DNA of 64,000 bases, taken from the NCBI GenBank assembly GCA_036867785.1, contig CP145409.1:1860001-1924000 (forward strand). The letters run 5' to 3'. Of this stretch, positions 5,985-64,000 are shown one piece after another. The notes beneath the pieces were generated by a model. The model did not search any database, was not told where the DNA came from, and worked only from the letters and a program-made list of their open reading frames with translations. The stretch comes from Plasmodiophora brassicae. Lineage: Eukaryota. Every line of letters starts with the position of its first letter. The stretch's first letter is position 1. The position numbers and the translations under genes were made by a program.

Positions 5985-6863
5985 TGTCGAGGCAGCTCGC
6001 GTCACCATCACGGGGATGGTGCTGCAGCTCCCCACTGACGCAGTCCGCCACCACCCGGCTGGCGGCATCGGAGTATTTTTGTCCCCCCGCTCCAGTGACA
6101 GTGTCGATGGGACGCGAGCAACAGCCAACATCCGACTCATGAGACTGCAACCGGGAACGCGAAACGGCGGTTGCAACATCGACGTAGCTCGCACTGCGAT
6201 CGTCGATCATCGGTGGTATGTAGGTACAGCTCCCGCTGTCGTCGCAGTCCGCAAACGACTGCGTCGCAGGTTTTATCATTGTGCCTGTTTCGAGAGGTGA
6301 TGCGGTGCGGGTTCTGTGGGCGACGAATCTCGGCTGCTGGGCTGCACGGTAAGGACAGGGTTTGGCGTCTTCTCCCGTTTGCCGAAGCAGACGTGCTCGA
6401 ACCAGCGCGATTCGCGTTCGTCTGACTCGACGATGGTGGGCAGCTGCTTGTGTCGGGATACAACTGACCAGGGCCTGATTGTAAACATGGGGCCTCCCGC
6501 GACGATGCACGTTCTGCGTTTCACTATCGGCAGGTTCGCGTCGTCTTGTTCAACGTGCTTAGGGGGCGGCGGCAGCGCGTCAAACTCGCGGCCGGCTGGG
6601 GGATGCCTCGGCATGCTTAAGCACAGCACGTGCGTACAGCCACGCCAACGCCAGCCGCGATATTCTCGATGATCGCTTTACCGTACCAATTATTTCCCTA
6701 AAAATCGACCTGAACGGGGTTTCGACTGCCGATCAGCACCGGGCAACAGTGCCACATGGCGGTTCCTGTACGTCCCTGCATACGCGGCACCGACGATGCG
6801 CATTCGACAATGCGGCCACTGCTGTCACGCAAGGCACAACGCTAGGCTCAAAGGCAGTACGAT

Positions 6864-17554: not shown

Positions 17555-17790
17555 ACATCGGGCAGGCGGTGCAACGTGCTCCATGATCTATACAACCAGG
17601 CGTCGTCCGTTGACATTTATACGCAAAGCGCGAATGGGGGTGCAGCATAAGGCGTTCCCAGGTTGGCGCTCTGTGGGGGCAGGGGGAGAGTACGCCGAGA
17701 CAGAAATAGCGGGGGGTTGACTGGCGCGCGCAGACGTGCGCTGCGTGCCCTGCCCCCGCGCATCGAGCACCGCGAACGACCGGGTACGAC

Positions 17791-20199
17791 ATGTCCAGCG
17801 GCGGCAATCGTCGTCTGCGCCGCCACAGGGCGACATGGGTGTCGCTGGGCGTGTTCGGCCTGGTCCTGGGGCTGGGCGACGCCGTCCTCCGGCTGCGCTC
17901 GAGCGACAGCGTCTGCCATGTCGTGAACGCGAGCGCCGCCGTCGCCCACTCGGAAGCATTCCGGGGCGTGGTCGCCGCCACCGCCGCCACCGTCGTCCTG
18001 CCGAACATCGGCAACGCCGCACTGGCGCCCATGGTCGAATTCATCCATCGAACCGCCCCTGCTGACCAGGTACACGTCTCGTCGTGCTACGCTGTAATCG
18101 TTGCCAAAGGGCCAGTTCGCCGAGCAGTGGGTCTTGAACCGTCTGGCAGTCGACGGTCTGGATGCCCAATGCTGCCTGATGACCGCCGCCAACTACCTCG
18201 CCATGTTCACGCTGATGCAGGCGGTCGCGTCCACGAAACGTACCTGGAGCGATTTCGCTGCCATGCGCGGGATGGTCCACCGCGACGCGATGTCGTTCCT
18301 CGTGGGCCACGTCCCAGGTACCGCCCGCCTGCGGCAGGTCGCGGCAGCATCAGGCAGTGCTGACCAGCACGCGACCGTCCAACGAATCCACGATTGCATC
18401 GTCACTGGCCGTGGCAGTGCCACGTTCGTCAACAACGTCCGGTGGGATAAGTACGGGAACCTGTTGCACTGGGCCGCTCGCCATGGCGACCCATCGATCG
18501 TGGCATCGACGTCAACGCATGCGACAGGTTGAACAAGCCGCCCTTGTACACGGCCGTATCCGCCGAGCACGTGGACGTCGTCGAGACGCTGCTAATGTTC
18601 TCAGGCGTCGATGCCAACGGCCGGGCGTTCTTCCTGGAATCGCCCCTGCACCGAGCCGCGTCGTTGGGGAACCCGGCGGTCATTGCCATGCTGCTGGGTG
18701 CGGCCGCGATCAATGTCAACGCGCGCGACACTGAACACGCCACACCCCTGCATGTCCTGGGGGCATCCTCTCGGTTCGACGATGGGGCGCACCAACCCCA
18801 GCTACGACGCAGCGCCGAATTGCTGGTGAACGCACCCGGGATCGACGTCAACGCCGCCAACGAGGACAACATGACGGCCCTGCACTACGCCATCATCCAC
18901 GAGCGCACCGTCGTTGCACAGGTGCTGCTCAGTGCCTCCGGTATCGATGTCAACGCGGGCGACCGCGACCAGGACGCGCCGATCCATGTGGCGGCGGATG
19001 CAGGCCAGGCTGACATCGTCCAGGCGTTGCTGGGCCACCGCCCCGTCCGTGTCGACGTGAACGCGCGCGACCGCAAGAACAGGACCGCCTTGCACAGGGC
19101 CGTCATGCGTGGACGCGAGCACGTTGTCAAATTGCTGCTGAACGCCACCGACATCGACGTCAATGCGCGAGACGTCCATCAGACAACATCGTTGCACCGT
19201 GCCCTGGTTCGGGACGTACCCAACGTCAACGTGATCACGTTGCTGGTGAACGCTCCTGCGGTTGACGTTAACGCGGGGGACGATACCCTGTGGACGCCGC
19301 TGCATGTGGCCGCTGCTCGTGGACAGACGGCGGCCGCTGAGGTTCTCCTGAGTCATCCAGACATTGACGTGAACGCTCGCGATTGGACCCAGACGACGCC
19401 GCTGCTGGTGGCGGTGAAACGCCAGAGACTCGACGTGGTCGCCCTGTTGCTGGGCGTCCCGGCTGTCGACGTCAACGCTGGCGACGACGACCTGGCAACA
19501 CCATTGCATTGGGCGGCATCCAGTATCGAGGTCGACGCGAGCGTCGCTGAGTTGCTGCTGGCGACCCCTGGTATCGACGTCAACGCCCGCGATGGCCACC
19601 AGGGCACGCCTCCGCATTGGGCAGCGTCCGTCGGATACGGCCAGGTTGTCAGGGCGCTGATGAACGCTGTCGGGATCGACGTCAACGCCCGCGACATCGC
19701 CCAGCGGACGCCATTGCACTGGGCCGCCCTTGGCGGATACGTCGACGCCGTCGACCTGATGCTGGGCCACTCTGACGTTGACGTCAACGCGCAGGACATC
19801 GGTCAGATGTCGCCGCTGCATCTGGCCATCCGCAACGGGAACGTTGGCGTCGTCGAATCGCTGATGAAGGCGCGCCAGGTCGATGTCAGCGTCGGGGACG
19901 AATTCCAGCGGACGCCATTGCATCTGGCCGCCCGCCTTGGCCAGGAACAAGGTGCGGCGTTCCTGCTGCTGAAGGCCACCAGCGCGACTGTTAATGCTCG
20001 CGACGTGAACCGCACAACGCCTCTGCACGTCGCTGCCGCCCTTGGACATGCTGGGATCGTCAAGTTGCTGACGACCGTGGCCGGGCTCGATGTGCACGCC
20101 AAAGACCTGGATGGCATGACCGCGCTGGAGTACGCCCTGGGTCGCGCCCATCATGGTGTCGCGTCGCTGCTGGGTTCGTACGTGCCCGGAAGACGTTGA
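17791..20199 (+). pseudogene. Secreted SKP1/BTB-like + 17 ankyrin repeat gene (copy B), frameshifted in ANK1, possibly splice-rescued
   Basis: Intron 18070-18109; 22 nt missing between 18501 and 18502 relative to copies A and C; the downstream 556-aa frame is intact. Confidence 0.7.
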
Positions 20200-20462
20200 C
20201 CGCGTGGGTGGACCTGGAGGACCCACACAGAAGAGCTAGAAACAGTACACGTCGACTAGCGCGCCCTGCAAGATGCGGTCCTTGGGACAGGCCGCCGTGC
20301 GCCGACTCGGGTCGCTCGCCTCAGTCGACACGACTCGCCAGAATTAGGTCCTTCCGCGTCCGCCGCAAGCCTCCGGGCCTGGGGAGCCCGGCCATGTGAA
20401 ACGTGCAGCAGCTCGCTGGCGCTGAGGACGGCGAACACGCGCGCACACACACACATAGACAC

Positions 20463-22969
20463 ATGTTCAGGACCAACCGGTGTATGAGGACTACCATGTG
20501 GATATCGCTGGCCGTGCTTGTTCTGCTATCCGGGGGCGACGCAGCGCTCAGGCTGCGTTCCAGCGATGGGGTCGCCCACGACGTCGACAGGCGCGCGGCG
20601 AGCGCCCACTCGGACGTGCTGAAGCACCTGCTGCCGGCCGGCGGCTCCAGCGGCACCGTGATTCTGCCCAACGTCGCCAGCGGGGAGCTGGCGCCGATTG
20701 TCGAGTTCATCAACACCACCGCCGATTATGACGTACGCACCCGGCACGCACGCCCCGCCCCCCGTGTCTGAGCACTGAACAGGCCGACGTCGCCGAACGA
20801 TGGGTCCTGGACAAGCTGGCAGCATCAGGGGTTGCCGAGCAGTGCCGCCTGGTGACCGCCGCCAACTACCTCGCCATGCACCCGCTCATGAGGGCGATCG
20901 CGTCCACGAAGCGAACATGGGGCGACTTCGCCGCCATGCGCCAGGTGCTGCACCCGGATCCGCTATCCTTCCTCGTGAGCAACGCCCCCGCTGTCGTCCG
21001 CATTCAGCAGGCCATGGCCACCGACGATCAGATCGCGATCGTCGAACGGCTCCGTTGTCTCCTGAACGCGGGCGGAAACGCGACCTTCGTCAATAACGCA
21101 CCATGGGACGCCTGCGGCAACGTGTTGCACTGGGCCGTACGCCATGGGGATCGACCGATCATCGAGCTGCTGGTAACCGCCCCCGGGATCGATGTCAATG
21201 CTCCTGACGCGTCGCAGAGATCGCCGCTGCACCGCGCTGTCGCTGCCGAGTTCGCCGACGTCGTCGCGTTGCTGCTGAAGTCCCCCGATGTCAACGTCAA
21301 CGCCCGGAACGCGCTCCTGGCGACGCCCCTGCACAGAGCCGCGCAGCTCGGCAACGCTGGCATCATTGGACGGCTGCTGCATGCGCCCGGGATCGACATC
21401 AACGCGCGGGACGACGATCTGGTCACGCCGCTCATCGCGTCGGTGTCGACGCAGCGGTTCGACGACCCCGCGCACCGACCGGAATGCCACGCGAGCGCCC
21501 TGATGCTGATCAACGCGCCCGGGATCGACGTGAACGCAAGAGACGTTGACAACATGACCGCCCTGCACTGGGCGGTCACCCTCAGACACCCCGGCGCGGT
21601 CCTGTTGTTGCTCAGCGCGCCAGCCATCAATGTTAACGTGCAGGATCGCCACCTGCAGACGGCGCTGCACTTGGCGGCGGCGACTGGCCAGGCCGAAATC
21701 GTCAAGGCCCTGCTGAGAGGCCCGACCGAGATCGACGTCAACGCGCGGGATCGGAAACAGTATACGCCATTGCACAGAGCGGTCGCCGGTGGGCACGCAA
21801 AGGTCGTCGCGTTGCTGCTCAACGCCGCCGGCATCGACGTCAACGCAAGGGGACCCCGGCAGATGACCGCCCTGCACGGGGCGCTTGCCAGGCAGGCGCC
21901 CAATGACGACGTCGTGCGGTTGCTGGTGAGCGCGCCCGGGGTCGACGTCCGCGCAGGCGATGGTCATCTGTGGACACCACTGCATTGGGCCGCTGCCCTG
22001 GGGCATATCGCGGCCACTGACCTTCTCCTGACGCACCCGGATATCGACGTTAACGCCCGGGACGCTGCTCAAACGACGCCGCTACTACGAGCGGTTGGCG
22101 GCCGCCACGTCAACGTGGTCGTGTTGCTGCTGAGTGTCCCGACGATCGACGTCAACGCCGGCGACGGGGACCGGATGACCGCATTGCACTTGGTGGCATC
22201 CAAGGCCGATATCGGTCTAGACATCGGTCTCTGGTTGCTGGACGCCCCTGCGATCAACGTCAACGCTCGCGACGATTGCCGACGCACGCCCCTGCACTGT
22301 GCCGCTGCGACCGGGCACGTCGACGCCGTCGACGTGCTGCTGGATTGCCCCGGGATCGACGTCAACGCTCGCGACCACGACCTGCGAACGCCGTTGCACA
22401 GGGCCGTCGTTGCTGGCGTCGCCGGCGTCGTCGAATTGCTATTGAGTTACCCCGGGATTCAGGTCAATGCACCGGACAGGGACCGCATGGCCCCGCTGCA
22501 TCTGGCCATCACCCACAGCCATGGCAACGTCGTCGAATTGCTGATCGGCGCCCTGGACGTCGACGTCAACGCGCGCGCCAAGGCCGGCAGGACGCCGTTG
22601 CATTTCGCGGCGCGTTCCGGTCAGGACGGCGTTGTCGCGCGGCTGCTCAGTGCCACGAACGTTGCCGTCAACGCCCACGACGTGAACCGTCAGACGCCGT
22701 TGCACGTCGCCGCGTCCCGCGGGCACGTCTCCACGGTCAGGTTGCTGGCAAGGGCGGCCGGCGTTGACGTCAACGCGAAGGACGCGCTTCAGAGGACGGC
22801 ACTGGACATTGCCAGGGCTCGTGGCCACGACGGCGTCGTTTCGTTGCTGAATGGCCGCGCGCCGCCGAACGGCACGGCCGATCGCCAGGACCGGGCGACG
22901 CGTCCTGCACGCCAGATGCGTCTCGACTGGGAGTACTATCGCGGATGGTCGCCGCCGATGAGCGGTTGA
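20463..22969 (+). CDS. Secreted SKP1/BTB-like + 17 ankyrin repeat protein (copy C)
   Basis: Leader MWISLAVLVLLSGGDAA, LRLRSSDG..VILPNV..LVTAANYLAM; intron 20733-20782; 17 ANK repeats. Alternative starts at 20484 and 20496. Confidence 0.9.
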
Positions 22970-50753: not shown

Positions 50754-53700
50754 TTATCGACGGGAGAACAGCCACTCCATGAAGGTCTGCAATTTCTCCT
50801 TGCTGGCGTACCCGTCGGCGTTCAGGCGCGTCATGACGGCGTTCATCAGCGTCGACGTCCCGGACGACGACGTCGGCTCCATCATGGCCTCCAGTTCGGG
50901 CACGTGGTACGACGACCCCAGCAGGCGGACCATGTCGATGGACGCGTTGCGCACGGCGACGTCGTCGTCGTCCCACATGGACAGGATTAGGTGGAGCGCG
51001 CGTTCCCGGCCGACGGTAGCGTGCACCGGCAGGCGGGGCAGGATGCTGGCCAGCGCCGCGCACAGGTCCGCCTTGCTTCGGCGCAGGCGGTTCGCCTGCG
51101 CGTCGCTCTGCAGCGACCCGATCAGCTGCTCGGCCAGCCGTTCGTACAGCAGCGACAGGTCGACCGTGTCGTCGTCGTCACGCGCCCTGCACCCGGTGTG
51201 TTTGTGTCACACGCCTGACGGTGGGGAGGTGGCGCGCGCGCGCGCGAACCCCACCCACCTGACGACTTGGGTGATGCAATCGCGGGCGACCTTGCGCACG
51301 ACCTCGTGCTCGTCGCCCAGGATGCCGATCAGGAACTCGACGCCCGACGCGAACCGCTCCGGGTCGCCCACCTTCAGGTACGCGTACATCCGGCCGAACC
51401 CTTTCACCATCTCCAGGGTCAGCGTCGTCAGCGTCGCCAGCAGCCTGTTGTCCGCCTCGATGCGCGCCTGCCCCCGTGCGTCACACGACGCGCACCCGGC
51501 ACGCACACACGCACACACACGTACCTGTTCATCCTGGGCGGCGCGAATCATGGCGGCGCGTTTCTGCGGGTCGCCGGCCGCCTCGACCTGTGCGGCGGCG
51601 CGCGCGGCGGCGCGCTCCTCGTCCGCGGGCGTCGTGACGATCGGCGCGAGCTGTTGGTCGACGGCGGCGATGATGGCGGCGCGCAGGGCGGCGCAGCGCG
51701 TGCGCGTGTCCGTGCACAGGGTGCGCAGGCGCGCGATCGGCGCGTCCGTGCCGTCGTCCAGGTGGGCGAACGACGCGATCAGGTTGACGAGGACGCCCAT
51801 CGTGTGCGCCTTCGTCTTGAGATCGGCGCGCGTGACGCCCGGCGCCTCCATCGCCGCCAGCAGCTTGTCGAGCAGGACGCGGGCGCTGTCGGCGTTCGAC
51901 GCGATCGTCGCCGACAGCATCGTCTGCAGCTGGTCGGGCGTCATCGCCGCGATCAGGTCGTCGCCGAGCGCGACCCCGCCCGGGTCGTCGTGCGCGTCGC
52001 CCCCGGCCAGCTCCTGCCGCATCGTCGCCGCCGCCAGCGACAGCGACGACCGCGTCGACTCGCGGCGCAGGCGCGCCCGGTGCCCGTCGCGCGCCATCGC
52101 CATGCCCGTCGGCGACGACGGCCGTCGCGTCGCGCTGCTCGTCGCCGACGCCCGCGCTGGCGTCGACATCGCCGCCCCCGCTGGCTCGGACGACGACAAC
52201 GACGACAACGCGCCGGCGGGCGCCGCCCCGTCCGCACCCGGTGCACCGTCGGCGGGCGCGTTGCCCAGCGGTTCGCCCGGCGACGCCGACTGGACCGGGT
52301 GCGGCGCCTGGCCCGCGCCGGCGAACGCCGCCTTCAGGGCGGTCGCCGCGTCGACCGTGGACAGGTCGGGCGGGCGGGCGCCGACGGCCCCGTCGTCGCG
52401 CTCGACGGGGCCGTCCTCGTCGCCGTCCTCGTCGACGGTCGCGATCCCCGTCTTGCTGCCGTCGTTGTCGTCGTCGACCCTGCCGAGGCGGAAGGCCTCG
52501 TCGGGCGCGTTCGTCGCCACGCTGTCCTCCTGGCCGTGCGCGTCGTCGACGATCAGGTTGTCGACGTTGTAGATCAGCGACGAGTGGTACCGGGCGGCGA
52601 TGGACGAGTACCGCTCCGACGCCAGGTACCTGGCGTTCAGCGGGTCGGCGTCGGCGATCGACATCGGGGCGGGCAGGTCGCCGTCGTCGTCGTCGTCGAT
52701 CCCCGACGCGCTGTCGCTCCTGTACGCGCCCGCGACGAGGTCGCCGCCGGACGAGGACACGACGGCGGCGGCCGCCCTCGAGTAGTCGAACGCGCGCAGG
52801 ACCGACGTGCGCATGCGGAAGGCCAGCGATTGCGACAGGCGCTGGCGTGCGACCCGCATCGACGTCTTACGGTCGCCGGCCAGGTCGCCGCCCGCCGCCG
52901 CGTCGTCGCGCCTGGCGGCCCCTTCCAGGATCGGGGTCAGCGACGCGCGGATCGCCTCGCCCAGCGCGCCGTTGACGACCATCCGGACGGCGCGGCGGCG
53001 CACGCCAACGTCGGTGTCGGCGAGCAGGGCGACGACGTGCCCGAGGACCGCCTGCGGGTCCTGGTTCTCGGACAGCAGCGCCAGCAGCGTCAGGCGGCGC
53101 TGCTGGTCGACGGGGTCGACGGCGACGCCCGCCGACCCGTCCAGCCGGTCCTGCAGGGCGCGCAGGACCGGGTCGCCCAGCGCCATCGCCCGCAGCATCG
53201 GCCGGGCGGCCGCCACGATGTAGTCGTGGAACTCGGCGTCGTCGATGTCGTCGATCAGGTCGACGAGCTGCTGGACGACCGGGGAGCCCTACGTCGCGGT
53301 GGGTGGGCGTGCGTTCACAGGCGCGATGGGCGGCGCGCGTCACGCACCGAGTCGCAGATCGCGCCCAGCAGGACGAGGAGCTCGAGCGCGAGGTGCTTCG
53401 TCTGCCGCGTCGTCGCCTGCTCGGACAGGATCCGCCGCACCTGGTCGACGAGGGCGCGCGCCTGCGCCGCCGCGACGATCTCGGCGAGGTCGTGCAGCGC
53501 GGCGACCGGCACGAGCACGGCGTGCAGGGCGTGGACGAGGCCGTCGTGGGCGCCGGCGCCGGCGCCGGCGCGCCCTACGACGTACTCGACGACGCGGTGC
53601 ACGGCGATGACGGGGGCGGCCTGGGCGAACGTGCCCAGGGCGATGGCGAACCCGGCGAGCCGGTCCGTCGGCAGGGCGGCGATCTGGCGGTCCAGCTCGG

Positions 53701-56700
53701 CGCACAGGCGATCGGCGAGCGCCTCGCGCGACTCGTCGCTGATCCTGCCGGCCAGCTCGCTGACGACGACGGCGGCGCTGGCCGCGAACCCGGTCGGCGA
53801 CGACAGGAACCGGAGCAGGCGGTCGGCCGTGTGCTCGGCCTCGGCGCCGACGTCGCCGACGACGCGCTCGTTGCCGATCAGCGCCCGCACCTGGTCGACG
53901 AACGCGCGGTTGATCGGCGGCGGGTTCATGACCGCGTCGGCGTGCGCCTCGTAGTCGTCGTCGGCGTCGTCGTCGCGGGACGCCCCCCTGTCGGCGGGGG
54001 CGCCCAGGTCGAACGCGTCGTGGCACGCGAACGACAGGGCGGTCGGCGGCGGCGCCGTCGCCTCCAGCGCCAGCGACGACGCCGGCGCGCGCATGCTCTG
54101 CACGAGGTGGACGGTGGGCGACGACGGCAGCGACAGCGTCTTGGCCTGGATGCCGCGGCGCACCTCGACGCGCACGTCGATGTCGCTGTCGGCCAGCAAC
54201 GGCAGCACCTGCCACAGGGCGGACGCCATCGAGGCGCGCACGTCGCTCGGCATGTCGGCGGCGGCGACGTCGGCGATGCCGAACACGGCGGACGTGGCGT
54301 CGCGCCTGAACTCGTAGTTCGGGTGGCACAGGAACGGCGTCAGGTCGGCGAGGAACTTGGGCACCATCGCCAGCGACGCCGGCGTGCCGCACGACCCCAT
54401 CGCCCTGATCGACACGCGCCCGACCAGGTGCCGCTGCGCCTTGGTCAGGTTCGCCATCAGCGGGTCGCCCGGGTCCGCCCCCGCCGCCAGCAACGGCTCA
54501 ATGTCGCCTGCGACGACACACCGCGCCCCATATATGAGCGGGCGCCCTAATAACAGCGTGCAGGCGCGCGTCGTCCGTTACCCATGAGGAACTCAAAGTA
54601 GGCGGTCGCGTCGTACACGTTCGCCGGCAGGGTTGCCGCGCATCGCGCCACGACCACGTAGAGGCGGTCGGCGCCCGCCGACGACGTCGTCAGCATCTGG
54701 CGCGTCGCGTTCCGCAGGTGGTCCAGGTTCGCCGCCAGCACCGCGGTCGCCTCGTTCCTGTTCGCCGCCGTCGGGTTCGCCAGGTGGTCCAGCAGGAGCG
54801 TCTCGATGAGGCGGACGATGGCCTTGGGCGGCAGGGCACCCGGCGCCGGGCGCCCCTTGGCGTTCGCCAGGGCGCGTTCGCCGAGCATGTCCGTCAGGGT
54901 GCCGAGCAGGCGCGTCGTCAGCCAGACGTTCAGCCTCGGGATGTGCCGGCGCGCCAGGCCGTCCAGGATCGCCAGCGCGCTGTCCTGGACGAACGCAGCG
55001 GCGCCGTCGATCAGCGCGTCGACGGCGTCGGCGATGGCCGCGTCGGCAATGTCGCGCAGGAGGCGCGCGCCCAGGAAGCAGACCTTGATGGCGGTGTCGA
55101 CGGCGGCGGCGCGCACGACCCGATTGTTCGAGGCCAGCAGCGGGCGCAGGGCGCGCTCGACGGGGACGTCCGCCGTGCCGATCCGGATCGGGACCCGCAG
55201 GCGGCTGAACAGGAGGACGTACCAGTTGGGCAGGTGCGTCCAGACGTCGGCCCGCATCGTCACCGAGTCCGTCGCCATCGCGAACAGGCGCGCCCGGACG
55301 AGGTCGGCGATGCCGCCCGCGACCAGGTGCCCGATGACGCCGAACAGCGGCTCGGGATCCGCCCAGGTCGTCATCGCCGACACGATCTGGTTGTAGGCGC
55401 CCAGGCGCACGTGCAGGTCCGGGTGCCGGATCAGGCCCGCCGACTTCAACAGGAGCGCGTGGAACGCGCTCGTGCTGGCCGCCGACTTCCATTGCGGCCC
55501 CGACGACACGTCCAGGAACCCGCGCAGGCTGGCGAACGCGGCGACCGGGTCGACGTCGCCGATCCCGACGACCAGGATGGCCAGCGCCGCACACGCGAGG
55601 TCGTTCGACGTCCAGAACCGCCGGCAGCTGGCCAGGACGGTGTACACCGCCTGGCGCAACGTCGACGACGTCGGGGCGAACGCCTTCGGCGCGAGATGGT
55701 CGACCAGGAGGCGGTGCAGGCGCGCCACCGGCAGCTCGTGCAGCGGGAACATGGACAGCACCTCCAGCGCGAGCAGGACGCACGCGTCGTCGTCGGAGCA
55801 CAGCAGCTGCCTGAAGTACGTCTCCGACGACCTCAGCAGCGACTTGGACATGGTCGGCAGGGCGCGCTTCAACGCGCGAAAGATGGCCAGGACCGCCGCC
55901 TGCGCGCGCGTGTTGCCTGACGCGCCCAGGTCAGCGAACCGGCGCGCGTGTGTGTACCGTGCGTGTGTACGTGCGTACCCGTTTGCAGCATGGGCAGGAG
56001 CTGCTGGATGAGGTTGGCGTCGAGCTCGGTGGCGCGTGACGCCCAGTGCCGTACGAGGTCGAGGTTGTCGAGCTGGGCGGCGAGCGGCATGCACCGCGTG
56101 CTGCCGAGGAGGGCGGTCAGCTGGCGCGGCAGGATGTTCGCGCCGTACATGACGGCCTCGGCGACGACGTCGGAGAGCGTGACCGGGCGGCTGTGATGCT
56201 GGTGGTGCCGCTGCTCGAACGAGTGCAGCAGGTCGACGAGCGAGTGGAGCTTGCGGCACGTGGCGATCTGCATGAGGATGTGCAGGTGCAGGTTGCGGGT
56301 CACGAGGTGCACGTCGCAGCAGCGGTTGACAACGATCGGGTACAGGTCCGGGACGCGGTCGACGAGCTCGGGCGCGGCGTCCAACGTGGCGCTGACCATG
56401 ATGGCCGCCCCGTACCGGACCAGCGTCGGCGATAGCGCCGTCATAACCACCATGACGTTCTCGATGAACCTGACGGTCTCGGGCGGGGGTGCGCCGCCCG
56501 GGTTCGCCGCCATCGCCGCCGACGTCAGCGTGCGGGTCGCCACGGCCACCTGGTCGTAATGCGCCTCACAGCGCCCCGTCAACAGCTTCACGAGCGCCGT
56601 GTACGCGTCAGCGACCGTGGCCCCGCCGTGACGTCGTCGCCCAGGCGAGCGCTCGCCGTCGCCTTCGCGTTCGGCGACGAGTTCGTCGGGCGGCCGGCGC

Positions 56701-57662
56701 GTGATCTCGGCGATGATGTTGGAGATGGCGGTGCGGGCGGCGGCCGCTTCCGTGCTGCTGATCGTCGGGATCGCCAGCAGCTTCGTGATGATGTCGATCG
56801 TCAGCGACGCCGATCGCGAGCAGTAATGGCTGGCCAACAGGTCCAGCGATGCGATGATGGCGACACGCGTCCCCGTCACCTGCCATCGCGACGCATTGTC
56901 GTCGTCGAGGTCGAGCAGGAACACGATGTTCCAGACGGACGATACTGTACGACGACGGTTAGGGCGAGGTTGAATGCATGCCACGTTGCTTACGGTTGTC
57001 CTGGACGACCAGCAGGTCGCTGTTGCAGTGGACGAGCGTGGTGACGCAGACGACGGCAACGTCGCGTACGTTGTGATCGGCGTGCATGTACAGGGATTCC
57101 AGGCCGGTGACGAACCCGATCAGCATGGGCGCCAGCGCCCGATGGACCAGCGTGATCAGCGTCTGGATCGTGTACGATCGTCCTACGCCATGCGGTCAGA
57201 TGCCATCGGGGCGACGTCCACCTGAAGAGACTGTGGCTGACCGCCCGGTTTGACGACCTGTTCGTAGGCGGCCTGGACGGCAAACGTGCGGTCGAAGACG
57301 GCGGCGAGCTTCAGGTAGAGTAACGTGGCGCTGTGGCGGACGGATTGCAGGAAGTGGCCCAGGTTCGGGGCCAGGTCCACAGCGCTGCCCACGACCAGCA
57401 TCTCGAGGACGTCGGACGCACCGGGTCCTGAGCCTGAGTTAGTCACCGGGAGGGATGGCGAAGTGACAGCCGCCGACGAACGTGCCGCCTTCTGTTCGGC
57501 GTTGTCGACGGCCAGGTGCGTGTAGAAGGCGGCAACCTCTTCGAGCCATTCGATCGCGAGAGGTCGCTGCCCGTCGCGCAGCTCGAACTCGGTCAGCGAT
57601 TTGATGTGCTGTTTCACCGGCTGTTGGGGCCCCGGCGACGCCGCGATAGCCTCAGTCGCCAT
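50754..57662 (-). CDS. Very large HEAT/ARM-repeat protein, multi-exon
   Basis: Chain of minus-strand ORFs with HEAT signatures (LADTDVGVRRRA, LADSDIDVRVEV, LGDEHEVVRKVA, WDDDDVAVRNAS); exon structure approximate. Confidence 0.7.
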
Positions 57663-57853: not shown

Positions 57854-60586
57854 TTAGCGCGAAGGTGCACGCGATTTGTAGAACTTGGCCAGGCTGGCGT
57901 ACGCCTCGCCGAACGTCTTCGGGGTGGCGGTTCGCGATCGGATCCATTGTGGAAATTGTTCGATGATGGTGGGACGCGCGTACCTCTCATCCAGGAGGAC
58001 AATACCGGAATAGTCCCCACGGTGGCGAATCGCCCGGCCAATGCTCTATCCACAGCTCAACGTGACGCCATTGTCACGGTCAGCTCGAGCACAAACCTGG
58101 TTAACGGCACGCATGCACAAAGTCTCGAAGTATCGCTCGCCGGCACCCTTCCCGTGTGCCTGATCCATATACGCCATACGCTCGCGAAGCTCGGCATCAT
58201 TCGGATTCGCATACGGCATGCCGACGACCACGACAAGCTACGACGATCAGGTCAGCAACGTGCACTGCCCAGCATTGCGCGAGGAGATGCAGGGCACGTA
58301 CACGAGCGAGGTCGTCCGAGAAGTTGATGCCTTCGGACATCTTCCCACCAACAACGCAGGACAGCATAGCACCGCCAGCTCGCGCAACTGCCTCGCTGAA
58401 CCTGGTCAACGTCGAACCGACATCGGCAGCGTCCCGAGGTTCCCGATGGACTGACTTGCGGGAGCGGATTCGTTGGAGGAAGCCGTTCGAGTCCAGGAAT
58501 TTGAAGACAGCGTCCTCGTAGGCGTACGATGAGAAGAAGCAGACAAGGCCAGCCGGGGCGATCGAGCATAAATTCACCAGCGTACGTCCCAGCTCCATCA
58601 GCGTATCCAGTTGCGATCGTGATGTAAATCTGAAGTTCAGCGAGCGACCAGTGGGGCCCGTGCCAATGACGATCGCGGCGACGTTGTCAGGGGCAACGAC
58701 ATGGCCGCACGAGAACGTATGCACCGACCGCCCAGGGAACAGCTGATCCACGTAGAACGAGTACGGGCGCATCGTGCCACCTGCCAGGATGACAGCACGG
58801 GCGTCCTTCACAACGGCAGAAAACGACGATGACGGGTTCAGGTTCAGGTAACGCAGCGACGATGTGGATGGCATAATGACAACGCGTCCATCGTCGTTCG
58901 CATTCGTCAACGAGAAGAAGAACGACTTGAAGGCGGCCAGTGCCGTGAATGAGGAATCCGCGCCTTTACCAGCGTCCTCCATATTCTTGTCCATGAACCC
59001 GATCAGCTTGCGAACGATACCGCTCGCGTCCATCCATGCCGACGTATCCCACAGGTTCTGATTATCGATGCCGACGTCGAAGATGAAATCATTGACTGTG
59101 GCAACGTGAGTCGCTTTTGATGGATCGATCCTTTGTAAATTCGTGACGCTTAGTAAGTAGATCCCTGGCGCAATACATTTGCAACGTACCGTTTCAAGAA
59201 ACGTGCCAGAGACTTCGCGATGAACAAGACGCGCTTGACGTACATCGCGTTCGACGGCTTTAATCGCGATGCGTACCGTTTCAGGTACGCCTCCAGCGCC
59301 GCCTGGCAGCGTTCCACTCCCTGGCACGTCAGTGACACGCTGTTCATTTCATTGATTGCTTCGACCAAGTTGTGCGCCTACACAAAGTCAGCGTTTCTCG
59401 TAATACACGTCCAACGGGGGGCGGCATGTACCTCGTCAATGATGACAATGTTGCCCTTGATGTTGACGCCAAGGGTCTCGCGCGTCGTTTCGCTCAGCAG
59501 AGAGGGATATGGGACCACCAGCAGTTGTGCTGTTCGGGCGGCACGACGCGCCCCAAAGTAAGCACACGCTTTCAGCTGAGCTCCCTTCTTGAACAGGTCC
59601 TCCAAATCGGACGGGTGCTCCAAGGCGAACGATGCCATTAGACGTTGCAACGACGGCGAAAGGAATTCGCACCCCTGTTTCCCTTCGCTGCTCGTCTTCG
59701 ACCCGATCAGCTCAATACACCGATCGTTGATGGACGAAGGCGGGAGCGAGCGAACGCCCGGGTTCGTGCACAGGTGCTGACGCGACGACAATGGCACGCA
59801 CGAGCACCTGCTGCCGAACGGGCTCCTCACGAACTCGTGCAGAAACTGACGCGTCTGAGAACTATTGCGATGTGTCAAACCACAGGAACGTCAACGACAG
59901 CAGCGATAAGCGTACTGCGTCCGCGTCGCGTAGATGATCTGTACCGGCTGGACACGTGAACGTCAGATCGCGACGACACAGCGCGCAGGGATCCCGCGGG
60001 CATACCTTGTCATCTTCATCGATATCGCTGTCATCGTCCGGCTCGCTGCCAGAGTCAGCCAACCTTGATTTCCATTGCTCTGCACTACAGAGCTGGTCGG
60101 TGGATGGTTCCCAGTCGGCCAGGAACTCGTCATCGGGATCGGCTGCGCCTCCCGACGCGACCTGAACCACAATGTCAGAGAGCAGCACCAACGTCACCAT
60201 ATCTGTACGACCTTCTTTCTGCTGTCATTCCTACGCTTGTTCCTCGTATTGGCGCGTTCGATTCGTCGTCGGCGTTTCAGCTTACGCGCCGCTTCGGCCT
60301 GGGCAGCGTGTTCTTGCTCCTGAGCTGATTGTGCGGCAGAGAACTCCTTCACCCAGTCGGGGCAGTCGGCGATGGCCGACGACGTCGTCTGGGCCGCGTC
60401 CTTCGCCTTCACGGTTGTCGACGTCGTCAACCAATGCAGGGCGGCGCAGATAATGCTCATCGACTTGCCCGTGCCGGTCGGCGATTCGAACATGGCCAGG
60501 CGGCCCGTCTCGAGGCAGTCGAACAGCTCCGACATGAACTGCCGCTGGACGTCATACGGCTCGAACGGGAACGGTATCTCCCGCAT
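57854..60586 (-). CDS. DDX11: Fe-S XPD-family DNA helicase Chl1/DDX11, multi-exon
   Basis: [64 protein letters not shown]. Confidence 0.93.
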
Positions 60587-60832
60587 TCGCGGACGCCGTC
60601 GTCTTCGTCGTCGTCAACTCCGTGGCGACGTCTGCAGCTCCCACGGGGCCGCCGCTGGCACGTCACGACGTCGTCATGCGACATGGGCCTGTCGTTGTAT
60701 TGGCAGTGGCCGGCTTGTCGCTGCCGCCCTGTGGCGCAGCCGCTGCGGGCGCAATATCCGAGCCTGGCACTGGAACGAGCGGCTGCGGCAGGCGTTGGGC
60801 GCGATGGGTTGCCCCCAGGTCCCAGTGTGACG

Positions 60833-61286
60833 ATGGGTGTCAAGATCACGGTTGATGGCAACGGCGTCCATATTCACCTGTCTGTGCTGCAGAAGGTGAT
60901 CGCTGTGCAGGGTGACATACGCATTCCTCTGGGCAACATCAAGCTGCCCGTTCGGGTTCATCCCGACGAATGCAACCAATTCTTCAAAGGCCTAAAGGCA
61001 ACCGAATATGACTCGTACGGCGATTCTGCTGTTCTAACAGGAGCGATGCATCCAGGTTGGCGCCGACATTCCAGGAGTATTCACTGCCGCGAACTATTAC
61101 CATCTCGACGGGACGCACGACTTCTACTACTTTGCCGACGCGTCCCGCACGATCGGCCTGGACATCATCAACGACCCGCGGCGTAAAGTCGTCATCGTCC
61201 AGGTGGAAGATGGCACATCCGTCGAAGAGGTCGTCAACGCCATCTCGAATGCTGTTCAGTCCAGCGACGACCATAAAACAAACTGA
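60833..61286 (+). CDS. Small bacterial-like (PH-fold-like) protein, 2 exons
   Basis: MGVKITVDGNGVHIHLSVLQKVIAVQGDIRIPLGNI..FKGLK|VGADIPGV; the frame is restored by a GC-AG intron 60998-61055. Confidence 0.6.
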
Positions 61287-61365
61287 CCCCGATACTCCAC
61301 ATTCCATACATATGGTGTGCTGGCTGGGCTTCAGCGAATTGTGCTCAACGCATCTTGTCCGGACG

Positions 61366-61497
61366 TAGCAGTAGACATTGTCAACGACCCCGACCACAAC
61401 CTCGTCGCCGTCCAGGTCGAAGACGGCAAATCCGTTCACGAGGTCGCCAACGCTATTACGGACACCGTCCTCGCCAGCAACGATCGCAAATCGAACC
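61366..61497 (+). repeat. Diverged tandem copy of the C-terminal about 44 codons of the upstream small gene (61154-61283)
   Basis: VAVDIVNDPDHNLVAVQVEDGKSVHEVANAITDTVLASNDRKSN versus IGLDIINDPRRKVVIVQVEDGTSVEEVVNAISNAVQSSDDHKTN. Confidence 0.8.
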
Positions 61498-61576
61498 AAA
61501 CCAGAACGTCCGTTGGAGCTACACCCGCCTGCCACGGAGTGCGCTCAGCAGTCAGCAGCTCCTACAGCCCCTCACA

Positions 61577-62953
61577 ATGCTGAGCAAGGTCGGGACGTTG
61601 CTCACGGTCATGTCGGTGGCATCCTACATGCAGGACTGGCATAACCTCGATCACGTTGAGCCGGCAAGCGTGCGCATCTGTGAGACGGAGGCGGATGTGA
61701 TCAACGCCGTTCGTTCGTCGGATGGCCCGATTGCGGTCCGCGCGACTGGACACGGGCAGGGGTCCACTCTGGTTCCCGATGGCCTTGTAATCGACGTCAA
61801 CGCGCTTCGAGACATCATCAGCATTTCGCCGGATTCCGGGATCGTCGTCGGCGCTGGCTGCTCGTTCCACGATGTGCTCGATGCGCTCCGACCGCTGAAT
61901 CTCACGACGGTCACCCAGACGGACTGGCAGGGCCTGTCCGTCGGGGGCATTGTATCAGTCGGCGGACTCGGCCCCGGCCTGTTCCGTCATGGGCTGGTCA
62001 TCGATTCCGTCACCGCACTTCGAATTGTCACCGGCAACGGCGCTGTTCACGATGTCGGCCCAGACGACGACCTGTTCCGAGCGGCGTTAGGCGGCCTGGG
62101 TCAGTTCGGCGTCATCCTTCGCGTTCGGCTTCGCGTTGCACCTCGACCGGCCCGCGCCCGCCTTCATCGCTGCGTCACCACGCTGGACGGGTACCTTCGT
62201 GCCGACTACTCATCGGCGACGCTGCACAACGTGCAGACGTTCCCGCGCCTGAATCAACCCGGGACGTTCGTTAATCTGGAATCCGCATTCGCTGACTTCC
62301 CTCATGATCGATATCCGGACGCCTGGCTCTTCCTACACGAGTACGTCTCGTTCTACAACGATGGTGCGGGCAATGACGGTGCCGGGACAGTGCTCCGGGA
62401 CGAAGACGTTCTCGCCAAGTACGTTCGCGACGTGTCATACGACGAATGGGTGTTCCGCCTCGACGACAAGTTCGGCCGCCGGGCACCGCACGTTGACGAG
62501 ACGCCACTGTATCGGCCGTGGTTCGAGGCGTTCATCGGGGGCCAGGATGCCGTCGAGTTTATCGATCGGGAAGTGCTTCGCAACGTCACCGCCGACGATA
62601 ACCCATCGGGGTCGCTGATGATCACTTACCCAGTATCGTCGATGAGGTCGGTGAACAGCGACTCCATCTCGTTCCCGGATGGGTTCTCGTCGGGTATCTA
62701 CTTCGGATGGCTTCGCGTGACGCCCGACAAAGAGCAAGCGAAGCGGTTCCGACTGCAGGACGATGCCCGGCGCGTGAGGTTCCAGGAGCGATCGCGCGGG
62801 TACCTGAGCAGCGCCATGCCGCGTTCCGTTGAACAATGGCGCCTGTACCTGGGCGAAGACCGTCTCGTGCGTCTGCGTCTCTTGGCTGATCGCCACGACG
62901 CCCGTCATCGGTTCTCCTGGCGAATGTTTAAAGGACAAGACATACGGGACTGA
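61577..62953 (+). CDS. Cytokinin dehydrogenase-like FAD oxidoreductase (VAO/PCMH family), intronless
   Basis: RATGHG, TDWQGLSVGG..FRHG, LFRAALGGLGQFGVI, RPWFEAFI, GSLMITYP, YL..EQWRLYLG; short hydrophobic leader. Confidence 0.8.
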   Translation: MLSKVGTLLTVMSVASYMQDWHNLDHVEPASVRICETEADVINAVRSSDGPIAVRATGHGQGSTLVPDGLVIDVNALRDIISISPDSGIVVGAGCSFHDVLDALRPLNLTTVTQTDWQGLSVGGIVSVGGLGPGLFRHGLVIDSVTALRIVTGNGAVHDVGPDDDLFRAALGGLGQFGVILRVRLRVAPRPARARLHRCVTTLDGYLRADYSSATLHNVQTFPRLNQPGTFVNLESAFADFPHDRYPDAWLFLHEYVSFYNDGAGNDGAGTVLRDEDVLAKYVRDVSYDEWVFRLDDKFGRRAPHVDETPLYRPWFEAFIGGQDAVEFIDREVLRNVTADDNPSGSLMITYPVSSMRSVNSDSISFPDGFSSGIYFGWLRVTPDKEQAKRFRLQDDARRVRFQERSRGYLSSAMPRSVEQWRLYLGEDRLVRLRLLADRHDARHRFSWRMFKGQDIRD

Positions 62954-63658
62954 CGGGATCTCTGCTGGGTCATATTTGAAATAACGAGGGTTCATGGCAA
63001 TACATGGCTATTGTCCTTCGATTACCGCGTCGTCGCAGGCTTGTTGGCTCCCGGCACAGGTCGTCGAGCGTGTACGTCGGAGTGGCAATCGAATTGAACA
63101 GATCCGCAGACGGCGCAGGATGCCTCTGCACAGGTGCTACAGGTTGGGTGAGATCAGCAAAGGGGGTCACTAGGCGGCATTCCTGTGGCCCGCCCGGCTG
63201 CTGAACGTGGCGCGTGCAAAGGCTCGAGTAGCGACTGGGTCCCATTCGGAAGTAATGCCGGCGAAATTGCCAAATTCTTGGACAGCGATGGAGGGCCACT
63301 GGCGGGTGGCTGCCGTCGACGCCCCCGACAATGAAGCAGACAGAACGGAAAATGCGTCTTCGAACGCTGGTTCGATGGGCGCCTGCCGCAGCCCACGATT
63401 ACGTACAGCAGGGGAGTTTAGCGGCACGACCATACCGCTGGGTTGGCCTCGTGCATGGAAGACAGCTATTTGTTGCGTTGCTTATTGTATCTACATACAG
63501 CAGAGCTACCCGTATGATATCTGAACAACGCAGACATGTGGATTAGGGCACACAACTGTTGCATTTATTAGAGGAGCAGGCCGAGGAACCGGGAAAAAAA
63601 GATGGCCTAGCTCATGGGGATTTTCTTTGGACAATAAACGAGGTGGAGGCGAACGCAA

Positions 63659-64000
<342 letters not shown>

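What the first reader, a model, noticed from the sequence alone, without database searches (positions are those of the whole stretch)
61577..62953. Intronless cytokinin-dehydrogenase-like enzyme with a possible secretion leader
Seen: motifs track plant and actinobacterial CKX along the whole length. These include GH (FAD-linked His), TDW in place of TDY (catalytic Asp retained), FRHG, GGLGQFG, PW, G...YP and YL...W. The CKX DYVEG Glu may be Gln here (HNVQT; tentative). Inference: a hormone-modifying enzyme of a plant-associated protist, plausibly acquired horizontally. A cytokinin oxidase has been mentioned for Plasmodiophora, so this may not be new.
Basis: partly seen in the sequence, partly recalled or inferred. 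Interest (0 to 1): 0.7.

Follow-up and report, generated by a model that had tools for sequence, protein, structure and literature searches.

The report
Clubroot parasite's divergent cytokinin-oxidase-like gene
This is a real, intronless, apparently transcribed gene of the clubroot parasite Plasmodiophora brassicae for a flavin enzyme of the cytokinin-dehydrogenase family; it was already mentioned in the genome paper, it has no convincing secretion leader, and several motifs that plant enzymes need for activity are changed, so its action on the plant hormone is still unproven.

Summary
Window 61577-62953 (+) is one uninterrupted 458-codon ORF, and its product is homologous to cytokinin dehydrogenases (CKX) along its whole length. 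The evidence is a profile-profile match (E 2.3e-57, 447 columns) and an AlphaFold model (pLDDT 87.9) whose 28 best solved matches are all plant CKX (Z 37-41).

The organism is Plasmodiophora brassicae. A "P. brassicae cytokinin oxidase" (PbCKX) is already in print, so the gene is not new.

- The FAD-linking His59 and catalytic Asp116 are kept. Tyr170 is Trp, Glu288 is Gln, HFG is YLG and the PGQxIF tail is absent. Pfam's Cytokin-bind model does not hit the protein itself.
- The gene belongs to a well-supported small clade that includes a protein of Cercozoa sp. M6MM. This clade branches outside plants plus bacteria, so neither host capture nor recent bacterial transfer is supported.
- The "leader" is the first structural element of the CKX fold (model residue 2 = ZmCKX1 residue 40), not an added presequence.
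- Spliced contigs, most simply RNA-derived, from 4 of 4 runs cover the ORF with no joint.

Activity on cytokinins remains untested; I put it at about even odds.

The parts
61577..62953 (+). Complete single-exon coding sequence of the CKX-like flavoenzyme (458 aa plus TGA), protein P0001
   Evidence: ORF list and translation. The exact protein is in the public collection on 5 contigs. Spliced contigs of 4 of 4 runs cover it with no joint and no differing letter.
61577..61627 (+).
   Evidence: Model residue 2 aligns with residue 40 of ZmCKX1 (1w1o_A). Helix 11-17; the block 11-20 has mean pLDDT 81. Best 8-residue hydropathy is 2.27, against 2.88-3.91 in the four non-plant relatives with clear leaders.
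61661..62056 (+). FAD_binding_4 (PF01565) domain, residues 29-160
   Evidence: Pfam E 3.2e-19, 69.5 bits against a cut-off of 26.4.
61751..61753 (+). His59 codon (in TGHG), equivalent of ZmCKX1 His105, which links FAD covalently
   Evidence: Alignments. Numbering mapped through 1w1o. His in 12 of 12 plant and 47 of 50 other family rows. Role taken.
61922..61927 (+). Asp116-Trp117 (TDW): the catalytic Asp169 equivalent is kept; the Tyr170 equivalent is replaced by Trp
   Evidence: The D169E mutant entry 3s1f fixes the Asp of the TDY motif as residue 169. Tyr170 is proposed to help flavinylation.
62234..62236 (+). Gln220 codon, at the position of ZmCKX1 Glu288 (partner of the catalytic Asp)
   Evidence: At this column: Glu in 12 of 12 plants; Glu 20 and Gln 14 of 50 other rows; Gln 3, Glu 1, Lys 1 of 5 clade rows.
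62510..62527 (+). YRPWFE (312-317), the counterpart of the plant PHPWLN motif; Pro-Trp kept, His to Arg, Asn to Glu
   Evidence: W397/N399 numbering taken.
62846..62854 (+). Tyr424-Leu425-Gly426, in place of the HFG motif
   Evidence: plants H 12/12 and F 12/12; other rows H 37/50 and F 28/50. The HLG variant of maize ZmCKX6 is reported inactive (passage).
61287..61576 (+). Upstream leader/intergenic stretch. It holds a decayed in-frame copy (61365-61496) of the C-terminal 44 residues of the upstream gene. Only one ATG (61312), and none after 61391.
   Evidence: BLASTP 24/44 identical, E 4e-15. ATG scan. Contig ends at 61338/61391 (X16) and 61512/61581 (X7).

Best explanation
This is the Plasmodiophora brassicae gene already referred to in print as its 'cytokinin oxidase' (PbCKX). 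It is a single-exon nuclear gene, apparently transcribed.

**What it encodes.** A 458-residue two-domain flavoprotein of the vanillyl-alcohol-oxidase superfamily, in the cytokinin-dehydrogenase (CKX) branch.

**Most likely mechanism (inferred from the family, not shown).**
- FAD is held at His59.
- Asp116, paired with Gln220, polarises the exocyclic secondary amine of an N6-substituted adenine.
- A hydride passes to flavin N5, and the resulting imine hydrolyses to adenine plus an aldehyde.
- The enzyme would work inside the parasite, because the protein starts directly with the folded domain and has no added presequence.

**Evolution.** It belongs to a small, deep-branching clade that includes a Cercozoa sp. 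M6MM protein. In this clade several plant-type motifs are replaced (Tyr170, Glu288, HFG, PGQxIF). Kinetics, the mode of flavin attachment and the preferred substrate may therefore differ from plant CKX.
For: **Family**
- The best solved relatives by sequence are 14 plant CKX sequences, E 2e-24 to 1.1e-13.
- Profile-profile comparison with 11 plant CKX: probability 100, E 2.3e-57, over 447 columns covering both domains.
- AlphaFold model: mean pLDDT 87.9, pTM 0.91.
- Foldseek: every row listed at ranks 1-33 is plant CKX (E 1.2e-33 to 6.2e-31); the first other enzyme is DprE1 at rank 35, E 5.9e-23.
- VIA-align: ranks 1-28 of the 50 entries listed are CKX (Z 37.1-41.2, rmsd 2.2-2.6, 409-440 residues aligned); from rank 29 on Z is at most 34.4.
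- 22 of the 25 nearest representatives scanned carry Pfam Cytokin-bind, including 4 of the 5 clade relatives.

**Catalytic core**
- His59 and Asp116 are kept, as in all 4 clade rows that cover those columns.
- Their roles come from the literature.

**Native gene**
- It is flanked by eukaryotic genes: PPR-DYW, signal peptide peptidase, ankyrin, WD40, DnaJ, DEAD_2 helicase, tubulin.
- GC3 is 0.734 against 0.63-0.82 in 11 neighbouring ORFs. The RSCU correlation with the rest is 0.90; the neighbours range 0.72-0.92.

**Transcription and structure**
- Contigs of 4 of 4 runs cover the ORF with no joint.
- In X1 and X3 the contig that covers the ORF also lacks the 58-nt upstream intron.

**Identity with PbCKX**
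- The organism was established.
- No second close paralogue appeared.
- Papers.
Against: - Pfam Cytokin-bind does not hit the protein itself even at E 1.
- Tyr170 (proposed helper of covalent flavinylation) is Trp.
- Glu288 is Gln.
- PHPWLN is YRPWFE.
- HFG is YLG, and maize ZmCKX6 with HLG is reported inactive because of that change (passage).
- The PGQxIF tail is missing.
- There is precedent for a CKX-like protein with no activity: Nostoc NoCKX1 (abstract). It lacks the His and the Asp that this protein keeps.
- Published transcript data call the gene lowly expressed or not expressed in kohlrabi galls.
- No assay exists. I found none in searches.
- That Schwelm's gene is this one is an inference; their Supplementary Fig. 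S19 and tables could not be read.
Confidence: 0.5

Rival explanations
1. It is a CKX-fold amine dehydrogenase that has moved to another substrate. The rhizarian clade would use the same His-FAD/Asp chemistry on a different secondary amine or modified purine, and would play no part in cytokinin turnover.
For: - The clade branches outside all plant and bacterial CKX-like rows (SH-aLRT 97-98 for the clade, 84-89 for the rest).
- Substrate-side positions differ from plants: Gln220, Glu317 for Asn399, Leu347 for Pro427 after a one-residue insertion, Lys298 near Glu381.
- The Pfam substrate-domain model misses the protein.
Against: - Gln at the Glu288 column occurs in 14 of 50 other family rows, and an acidic residue at the Asn399 column in 19 of 50.
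- The functional bacterial RfCKX also differs from plants at the Glu381 and Leu492 positions.
- No alternative substrate is known for any member of this branch.
Confidence: 0.27
2. It is a catalytically dead or unstable remnant, like Nostoc NoCKX1 or maize ZmCKX6, kept as an open frame but doing no redox chemistry.
For: - HFG is YLG; Phe to Leu in this motif is reported to inactivate ZmCKX6.
- Tyr170 is lost.
- Published expression is low or absent.
Against: - The frame is intact over 458 codons, and the protein is identical on 5 contigs.
- His59, Asp116 and the FAD-domain glycines are kept across the clade rows that cover them. The one named clade member belongs to a different rhizarian phylum in NCBI's taxonomy.
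- None of the 4 clade rows that cover the motif has HFG, so the loss of HFG is old and has been tolerated.
- Contigs that are most simply RNA cover the gene in 4 of 4 runs.
Confidence: 0.13
3. It is a secreted effector, exported by an N-terminal leader to destroy host cytokinins in the plant cell.
For: - Residues 5-16 are moderately hydrophobic (best 8-residue hydropathy 2.27).
- A Ser-Val-Ala stretch follows, which I read from recall as a possible small-residue cleavage pattern; no predictor was run.
- Hydropathy is higher than in relatives that clearly lack a leader (0.15-1.09).
- Three clade relatives (P0094, P0095, P0096) and many plant CKX do have clear leaders.
Against: - The protein begins where the ordered ZmCKX1 structure begins (model 2 = chain 40). 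A cleaved 16-residue leader would remove a modelled helix of the FAD domain.
- Relatives with leaders carry roughly 25-45 extra residues before the DFG motif; this protein has none.
- There is no upstream ATG or spliced upstream exon.
Confidence: 0.08
4. It was acquired recently by horizontal transfer, from a bacterium or from the host plant, as an adaptation to plant parasitism.
For: - The gene has no intron, although an adjacent gene does.
- The nearest named non-rhizarian relatives are actinobacterial proteins at 28-31% identity.
Against: - Its nearest relatives form a starred clade that includes Cercozoa sp. M6MM, a different rhizarian phylum in NCBI's taxonomy.
- The clade is not nested in any bacterial or plant group.
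- Holding it with plants costs 24.1 log-likelihood units, p-AU 0.045 (36 rows, LG+G4).
- Composition and codon usage are native.
Confidence: 0.1

Closest known systems
Plant cytokinin oxidase/dehydrogenases (ZmCKX1, PDB 1w1o; AtCKX7, 2exr; ZmCKX4, ZmCKX8)
   Same: - Same two-domain fold over the whole length (Z 37-41, rmsd 2.2-2.6 A).
- FAD-linking His, catalytic Asp, FRHG, GGLGQFG and the Pro-Trp of PHPWLN are kept.
   Different: - Only 21-26% identity.
- No leader or N-terminal extension.
- Tyr170 is Trp, Glu288 is Gln, Asn399 is Glu, HFG is YLG, PGQxIF is absent.
- Pfam Cytokin-bind does not hit.
- A separate deep clade.
Bacterial CKX and CKX-like proteins (functional RfCKX/FasE of Rhodococcus fascians; unnamed actinobacterial 'FAD-binding proteins' such as P0002 of Amycolatopsis)
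   Same: - Similar length and no long N-terminal extension.
- Gln at the Glu288 column is common there (14 of 50).
- A Tyr aligned with Tyr409 is present in 47 of 50.
   Different: - Bacterial relatives mostly keep Tyr170 (39 of 50) and, in HFG, His (37 of 50) and Phe (28 of 50).
- The parasite clade is not nested among them.
- RfCKX itself was not in my alignments; what I say of it comes.
Nostoc sp. PCC 7120 NoCKX1 and maize ZmCKX6 (CKX homologues reported inactive)
   Same: Degenerate conserved motifs. ZmCKX6 has HLG where this protein has YLG (passage).
   Different: NoCKX1 lacks the FAD His (GYT) and the catalytic Asp (Leu) and binds no FAD. This protein keeps both.
Other VAO-superfamily flavoenzymes (DprE1, EncM, L-galactonolactone dehydrogenase, BBE-like oxidases)
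   Same: The FAD_binding_4 domain and the general two-domain architecture.
   Different: Clearly more distant: Foldseek E 5.9e-23 or weaker against 1e-33 to 6e-31 for CKX; Z at most 34.4 against 37-41. They serve as the outgroup in the trees.

Membership tests
Cytokinin dehydrogenase (CKX) family | Two-domain VAO-type fold with the CKX-type substrate domain, closest to solved CKX structures | tested here: met
   - Foldseek: every row listed at ranks 1-33 is CKX.
- VIA-align: ranks 1-28 are CKX, Z 37.1-41.2.
- hhalign: probability 100, E 2.3e-57 over 447 columns.
- Caveat: the model was built from an alignment of CKX-family sequences.
Cytokinin dehydrogenase (CKX) family | Pfam Cytokin-bind (PF09265) above its gathering score | tested here: not met
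   - No hit at E up to 1 for the protein itself.
- 4 of 5 clade relatives pass (25.7-40 bits against a cut-off of 23), as do 22 of the 25 nearest representatives. Membership therefore follows only by transitivity and by profile-profile comparison.
Cytokinin dehydrogenase (CKX) family | His of the GHS motif (ZmCKX1 His105) for covalent FAD | tested here: met
   His59 in TGHG; the Ser of GHS is Gly. Covalent linkage itself cannot be tested here.
Cytokinin dehydrogenase (CKX) family | Catalytic Asp (ZmCKX1 Asp169) | tested here: met
   Asp116 in TDW.
Cytokinin dehydrogenase (CKX) family | Tyr next to the catalytic Asp (Tyr170), proposed to be needed for self-catalytic flavinylation | tested here: not met
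   Trp117. Clade rows: Trp 3, Phe 1 of the 4 that cover the column. Plants: Tyr 12/12. Others: Tyr 39/50.
Cytokinin dehydrogenase (CKX) family | Glu paired with the catalytic Asp (Glu288) | tested here: not met
   Gln220. Gln is a frequent natural variant in non-plant members (14 of 50).
Cytokinin dehydrogenase (CKX) family | PHPWLN motif | tested here: inconclusive
   YRPWFE: Pro314 and Trp315 are kept; His is Arg and Asn is Glu.
Cytokinin dehydrogenase (CKX) family | HFG motif (the Phe is reported as crucial for activity and stability) | tested here: not met
   YLG at 424-426. None of the 4 clade rows covering the motif has HFG. ZmCKX6 with HLG is reported inactive.
Cytokinin dehydrogenase (CKX) family | Tyr491-Leu492 at the domain junction | tested here: inconclusive
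   Tyr409-Leu410 align with the Tyr found in 47 of 50 non-plant rows, but lie two columns before the plant Tyr-Leu. hhalign instead pairs Ala413-Met414 with the plant pair.
Cytokinin dehydrogenase (CKX) family | Oxidative cleavage of the N6 side chain of cytokinins | not testable with these tools
Secreted proteins with a cleavable signal peptide | N-terminal presequence additional to the folded domain, with a strongly hydrophobic core | tested here: not met
   Model residue 2 = ZmCKX1 residue 40. Helix 11-17. Best 12-residue hydropathy is 1.71, against 2.52-3.31 in the four non-plant relatives with clear leaders. No dedicated predictor was run.

The most novel reading that the evidence does not exclude
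PbCKX and its few relatives (one from Cercozoa sp. M6MM, four from unnamed environmental or transcript contigs) form an unrecognised, ancient rhizarian subfamily of the CKX fold. The subfamily has replaced Tyr170, Glu288, HFG and the C-terminal tail. It would bind flavin differently and oxidise something other than, or broader than, classical cytokinins. If so, the 'cytokinin oxidase' label in the clubroot literature would be wrong or incomplete.
Probability: 0.3. Interest if true: 0.5.

Novelty: already known. Interest (0 to 1): 0.3.

Why it matters
Clubroot galls depend on disturbed cytokinin and auxin balance, and the parasite's own "cytokinin oxidase" is repeatedly cited as a possible hormone-manipulating gene.

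This analysis shows three things:
- The gene is real and apparently transcribed.
- It is probably not secreted, and it was not captured from the host.
- It departs from active plant enzymes at several motifs that matter for function.

The hormone-degrading role should therefore not be assumed before an enzyme assay. If the enzyme is active, it would degrade cytokinin inside the parasite. If it is not, one candidate for hormone manipulation drops out.

Tried and rejected
- **Whole genome.** Not held, so I could not search P. brassicae for paralogues or for IPT/LOG partners.
- **DNA context of relatives.**
  - With P0241 it returned one distant relative only (L001, 26% identity).
  - The DNA context of the clade relatives therefore stays unknown. 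Apart from P0095, I cannot show that they are eukaryotic.
- **More clade members.** The profile search with the clade alignment found no further members and missed four of its own six input rows; the search is limited by its word index. The protein atlas gave only generic CKX clusters.
- **AU test.** On the 73-row tree it did not finish in four calls. I replaced it with a 36-row set under the simpler LG+G4 model. Its p of 0.045 is borderline, and the group was named after seeing the first tree.
- **Run search.** No RNA holder was listed. The runs laid are labelled RNA only by guess. I read them as RNA because contigs skip intron-sized pieces (58, 62 and 53 nt) at three places, and one run also holds the unspliced form. 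Whether the joined forms also exist as DNA was not reported.
- **Contig depth.** Not used to rank expression.
- **Supplements of Schwelm 2015.** Fig. S19 and the tables could not be read. Their gene identifier, tree and any secretion call for this protein were therefore not seen.
- **Repeats.** The repeat finder saw no DNA-level direct repeat in 60800-61620, although the protein-level copy is clear.
- **Earlier notes of this scan.** Searches by sequence and by words gave nothing relevant.
- **Papers.**
  - A search for mutant data on Glu288 found nothing usable.
  - One search failed on term syntax.
  - Rolfe 2016 mentions only parasite IPTs in all 10 'cytokinin' places found in its main text.
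  - The 2025 hormone review does not hold the term PbCKX, and its two 'cytokinin oxidase' passages concern plant enzymes.
- **Fusion with the upstream ORF.** Considered and rejected. The two frames differ, no contig shows an indel or joint there, and the in-frame upstream peptide is Arg-rich and unlike any CKX N-terminus.
Full report
**What is there.** Window 61577-62953 on the + strand is one open frame of 458 codons ending in TGA. The frame is open upstream to a TAA at 61274. It holds no ATG before 61577, and 61391-61576 contains no ATG in any frame. Exactly this 458-residue protein (P0001) is already in the public collection, on five contigs, the longest 2,120,846 nt.

**Organism and setting.**
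- Neighbouring ORFs are plainly eukaryotic: PPR-DYW, signal peptide peptidase, three ankyrin-repeat ORFs, WD40, DnaJ, DEAD_2/Helicase_C_2 and a tubulin C-terminus.
- The signal-peptide-peptidase ORF at 8314-9738 is 99% identical to a protein that NCBI names Plasmodiophora brassicae, on a contig of the same length, 2,120,846 nt. The window is therefore from the clubroot parasite, as earlier notes of this scan also said.
- The gene's GC3 is 0.734. Its codon usage correlates 0.90 with eleven neighbouring ORFs, within their own ranges. It does not look foreign.

**Family.**
- Pfam finds only FAD_binding_4 (residues 29-160, E 3.2e-19). It does not find Cytokin-bind even at E 1.
- Every other line of evidence puts the protein in the CKX branch:
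  - The 14 best solved sequences by phmmer are plant CKX. One alignment, to ZmCKX2, runs over residues 31-383.
  - 69 of the 90 other proteins carry Cytokin-bind.
  - 22 of the 25 nearest representatives carry it.
  - A profile of the gene's clade aligns with a profile of 11 plant CKX over 447 columns, probability 100, E 2.3e-57.
- An AlphaFold model from a 68-row alignment has mean pLDDT 87.9 and pTM 0.91.
  - Foldseek: every row listed at ranks 1-33 is plant CKX (E 1.2e-33 to 6.2e-31). There is then a gap to DprE1 at 5.9e-23.
  - VIA-align: ranks 1-28 are CKX (Z 37.1-41.2, rmsd 2.2-2.6 A, 409-440 residues). From rank 29 on Z is at most 34.4.
  - The model leans on a CKX-family alignment, so this is supporting evidence rather than independent proof.

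**Motifs.** I mapped ZmCKX1 numbering through a close grass CKX (P0035) onto PDB 1w1o and its D169E, E381S and L492A mutant entries.

| ZmCKX1 feature | This protein | Status |
|---|---|---|
| His105 (GHS) | His59 (GHG) | kept |
| Asp169 | Asp116 | kept |
| FRHG, GGLGQFG | same | kept |
| Pro396-Trp397 | Pro314-Trp315 | kept |
| Trp501 | Trp421 | kept |
| Tyr170 | Trp117 | changed |
| Glu288 | Gln220 | changed |
| His395 | Arg313 | changed |
| Asn399 | Glu317 | changed |
| Pro427 | Leu347, after a one-residue insertion | changed |
| HFG | Tyr424-Leu425-Gly426 | changed |
| PGQxIF tail | absent | changed |

- In the 68-row alignment, Gln at the Glu288 column occurs in 14 of 50 non-plant, non-clade rows, so it is a common variant. 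Tyr170 is kept in 39 of those 50, and the Phe of HFG in 28 of 50.
It sits two columns before the plant Tyr491-Leu492, and hhalign pairs Ala413-Met414 with them instead. I leave this open.
- From the literature (section 9 of PMC8234997 read whole; passages of PMC4574047; a passage of PMC9340367):
  - The His links FAD covalently.
  - The Asp, paired with Glu288, polarises the substrate's amine nitrogen.
  - Tyr170 and Tyr491 are proposed helpers of flavinylation.
  - The Phe of HFG matters for activity and stability, and maize ZmCKX6 (HLG) is reported inactive.
  - Nostoc NoCKX1, which lacks the His and the Asp, binds no FAD and is inactive (abstract).
- This protein keeps the two residues that NoCKX1 lacks, and shares the HFG defect with ZmCKX6.

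**Relatives and origin.**
- The exhaustive representative search gave one relative at 39% identity (P0092, E 3e-81) and a fragment at 40% (P0093). Next come P0094, P0095 and P0096 at 32-33%, and everything else is weaker.
- P0095 is a protein of a MAG named Cercozoa sp. M6MM. The others come from short unnamed contigs.
- In a 73-row tree (LG+C20, quick search) these six form a clade with SH-aLRT 97. That clade is sister to all other CKX-like rows (84), within which plants are one clade (100). A 36-row tree gave the same picture (98, 89, 100).
- Forcing the clade together with plants costs 24.1 log-likelihood units, p-AU 0.045. This is borderline, uses the simpler model, and the group was named after the first tree.
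- NCBI places Plasmodiophora in Endomyxa and the M6MM organism in Cercozoa, both Rhizaria.
- The simplest reading is an old rhizarian gene. It was not captured from the host and is not a recent bacterial import. Long branches may also pull the clade towards the root. The deeper origin, including an ancient transfer, stays open.

**The N-terminus.**
- Structural alignment pairs model residue 2 with residue 40 of ZmCKX1 and residue 452 with residue 534 (1w1o_A). The FAD domain of ZmCKX1 is said to start at residue 40.
- Residues 11-17 form a helix, and the 10-residue block 11-20 has mean pLDDT 81.
- Three clade relatives (P0094, P0095, P0096) and P0099, an unnamed metagenome relative outside the clade, have obvious hydrophobic leaders, followed by roughly 25-45 further residues before the DFG motif. 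This protein has neither.
- Its best hydropathy windows are 2.27 (8 residues) and 1.71 (12 residues). Those four relatives score 2.88-3.91 and 2.52-3.31. Leaderless relatives score 0.15-1.09 on the 8-residue window.
- I conclude that the 'leader' is the first structural element of the fold. A dedicated predictor was not available.

**Transcripts.**
- Logan contigs of four runs from four studies were laid on 60200-63700. The runs are labelled RNA only by guess.
- Contigs skip 58 nt at 60995/61054 in all four runs. Allowing for the 3-nt ambiguity, this is a GC..AG intron at 60998-61055.
- Contigs also skip 62 nt and 53 nt at two other places. One run also holds the unspliced form. RNA is therefore the simplest reading.
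- In X1 (2,802 nt) and X3 (2,884 nt), the contig that lacks the 58-nt intron runs on through the whole CKX frame. X7 (61581-63383) and X16 (61391-63024) cover the frame with separate contigs.
- No run shows a joint, an indel or a differing letter inside the frame. This confirms the intronless structure.
- It also indicates transcription, in mild contrast with 'low' expression (Schwelm 2015, passage) and 'not expressed' in kohlrabi galls (Ciaghi 2019, passage). Contig depth cannot rank expression, and a contig across two genes does not show one transcript.

**What is known.**
- Schwelm 2015 states that cytokinin homeostasis 'can also be inferred by a P. brassicae cytokinin oxidase' and that its contribution 'remains to be shown'.
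- Two later papers repeat this, and Ciaghi 2019 calls the gene PbCKX.
- I found no biochemical or genetic study of it.
- No second CKX-like protein of this organism appeared, so I infer that this gene is PbCKX. Their supplement could not be read.

**Verdict.**
- The secretion leader is not supported, and horizontal acquisition is not supported as stated.
- I put about even odds on real cytokinin dehydrogenase activity, about one in four on a shifted substrate and about one in eight on an inactive protein.

Noticed in passing
window 61365-61496 (+), frame of 61287-61583: The stretch between the upstream gene and the CKX start holds a stop-free, in-frame copy of the upstream gene's last 44 residues (24/44 identical, E 4e-15). 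The frame carrying it runs on to a TGA at 61581-61583, which overlaps the CKX ATG (ATGCTGA). It has no ATG of its own. It could be a decayed tandem duplicate or an unused alternative last exon.
   Followed up: partly
window 60833-61286 (+): A small upstream gene of 131 codons in two exons (60833-60997, 61056-61286). It has a 58-nt GC..AG intron, spliced in contigs of 4 of 4 runs. Neither exon has a Pfam hit.
   Followed up: partly
window 63382-63434 and 60405-60466: Two further intron-sized skips in the contigs: 53 nt with CT..AC ends, which is a minus-strand GT..AG, and 62 nt inside the minus-strand DEAD_2 helicase gene. The X3 contig joins the CKX gene to the convergent downstream gene, so the 3' ends of neighbouring transcripts overlap.
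   Followed up: no
protein P0105: An unnamed 661-residue relative fuses a LOG-type domain (Lysine_decarbox/SLOG, the cytokinin-activating phosphoribohydrolase family) to a complete CKX (FAD_binding_4 + Cytokin-bind). One chain would then carry both activation and destruction of cytokinin.
   Followed up: no
proteins P0110, P0368, P0369: Other fusions of the CKX-like FAD domain: one with a flavin amine oxidase (736 aa), and one with a cytochrome P450 in two Nocardia proteins (865 aa).
   Followed up: no
window 3705-6194 (-): An 829-codon single ORF for a PPR protein with a DYW deaminase domain (E 1.7e-20).
   Followed up: no
window 15296-22969 (+): Three large ankyrin-repeat ORFs in a row (752, 556 and 705 codons).
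   Followed up: no
window 50779-57059: A very GC-rich block (0.72-0.76 at 52-56 kb) with long overlapping ORFs on both strands (up to 895 codons). None has a Pfam hit.
   Followed up: no
protein P0246: The source record labels the nuclear-looking signal peptide peptidase, which lies on a 2.12-Mb contig, as '(mitochondrion)'. This is probably a labelling slip in the deposited annotation.
   Followed up: no
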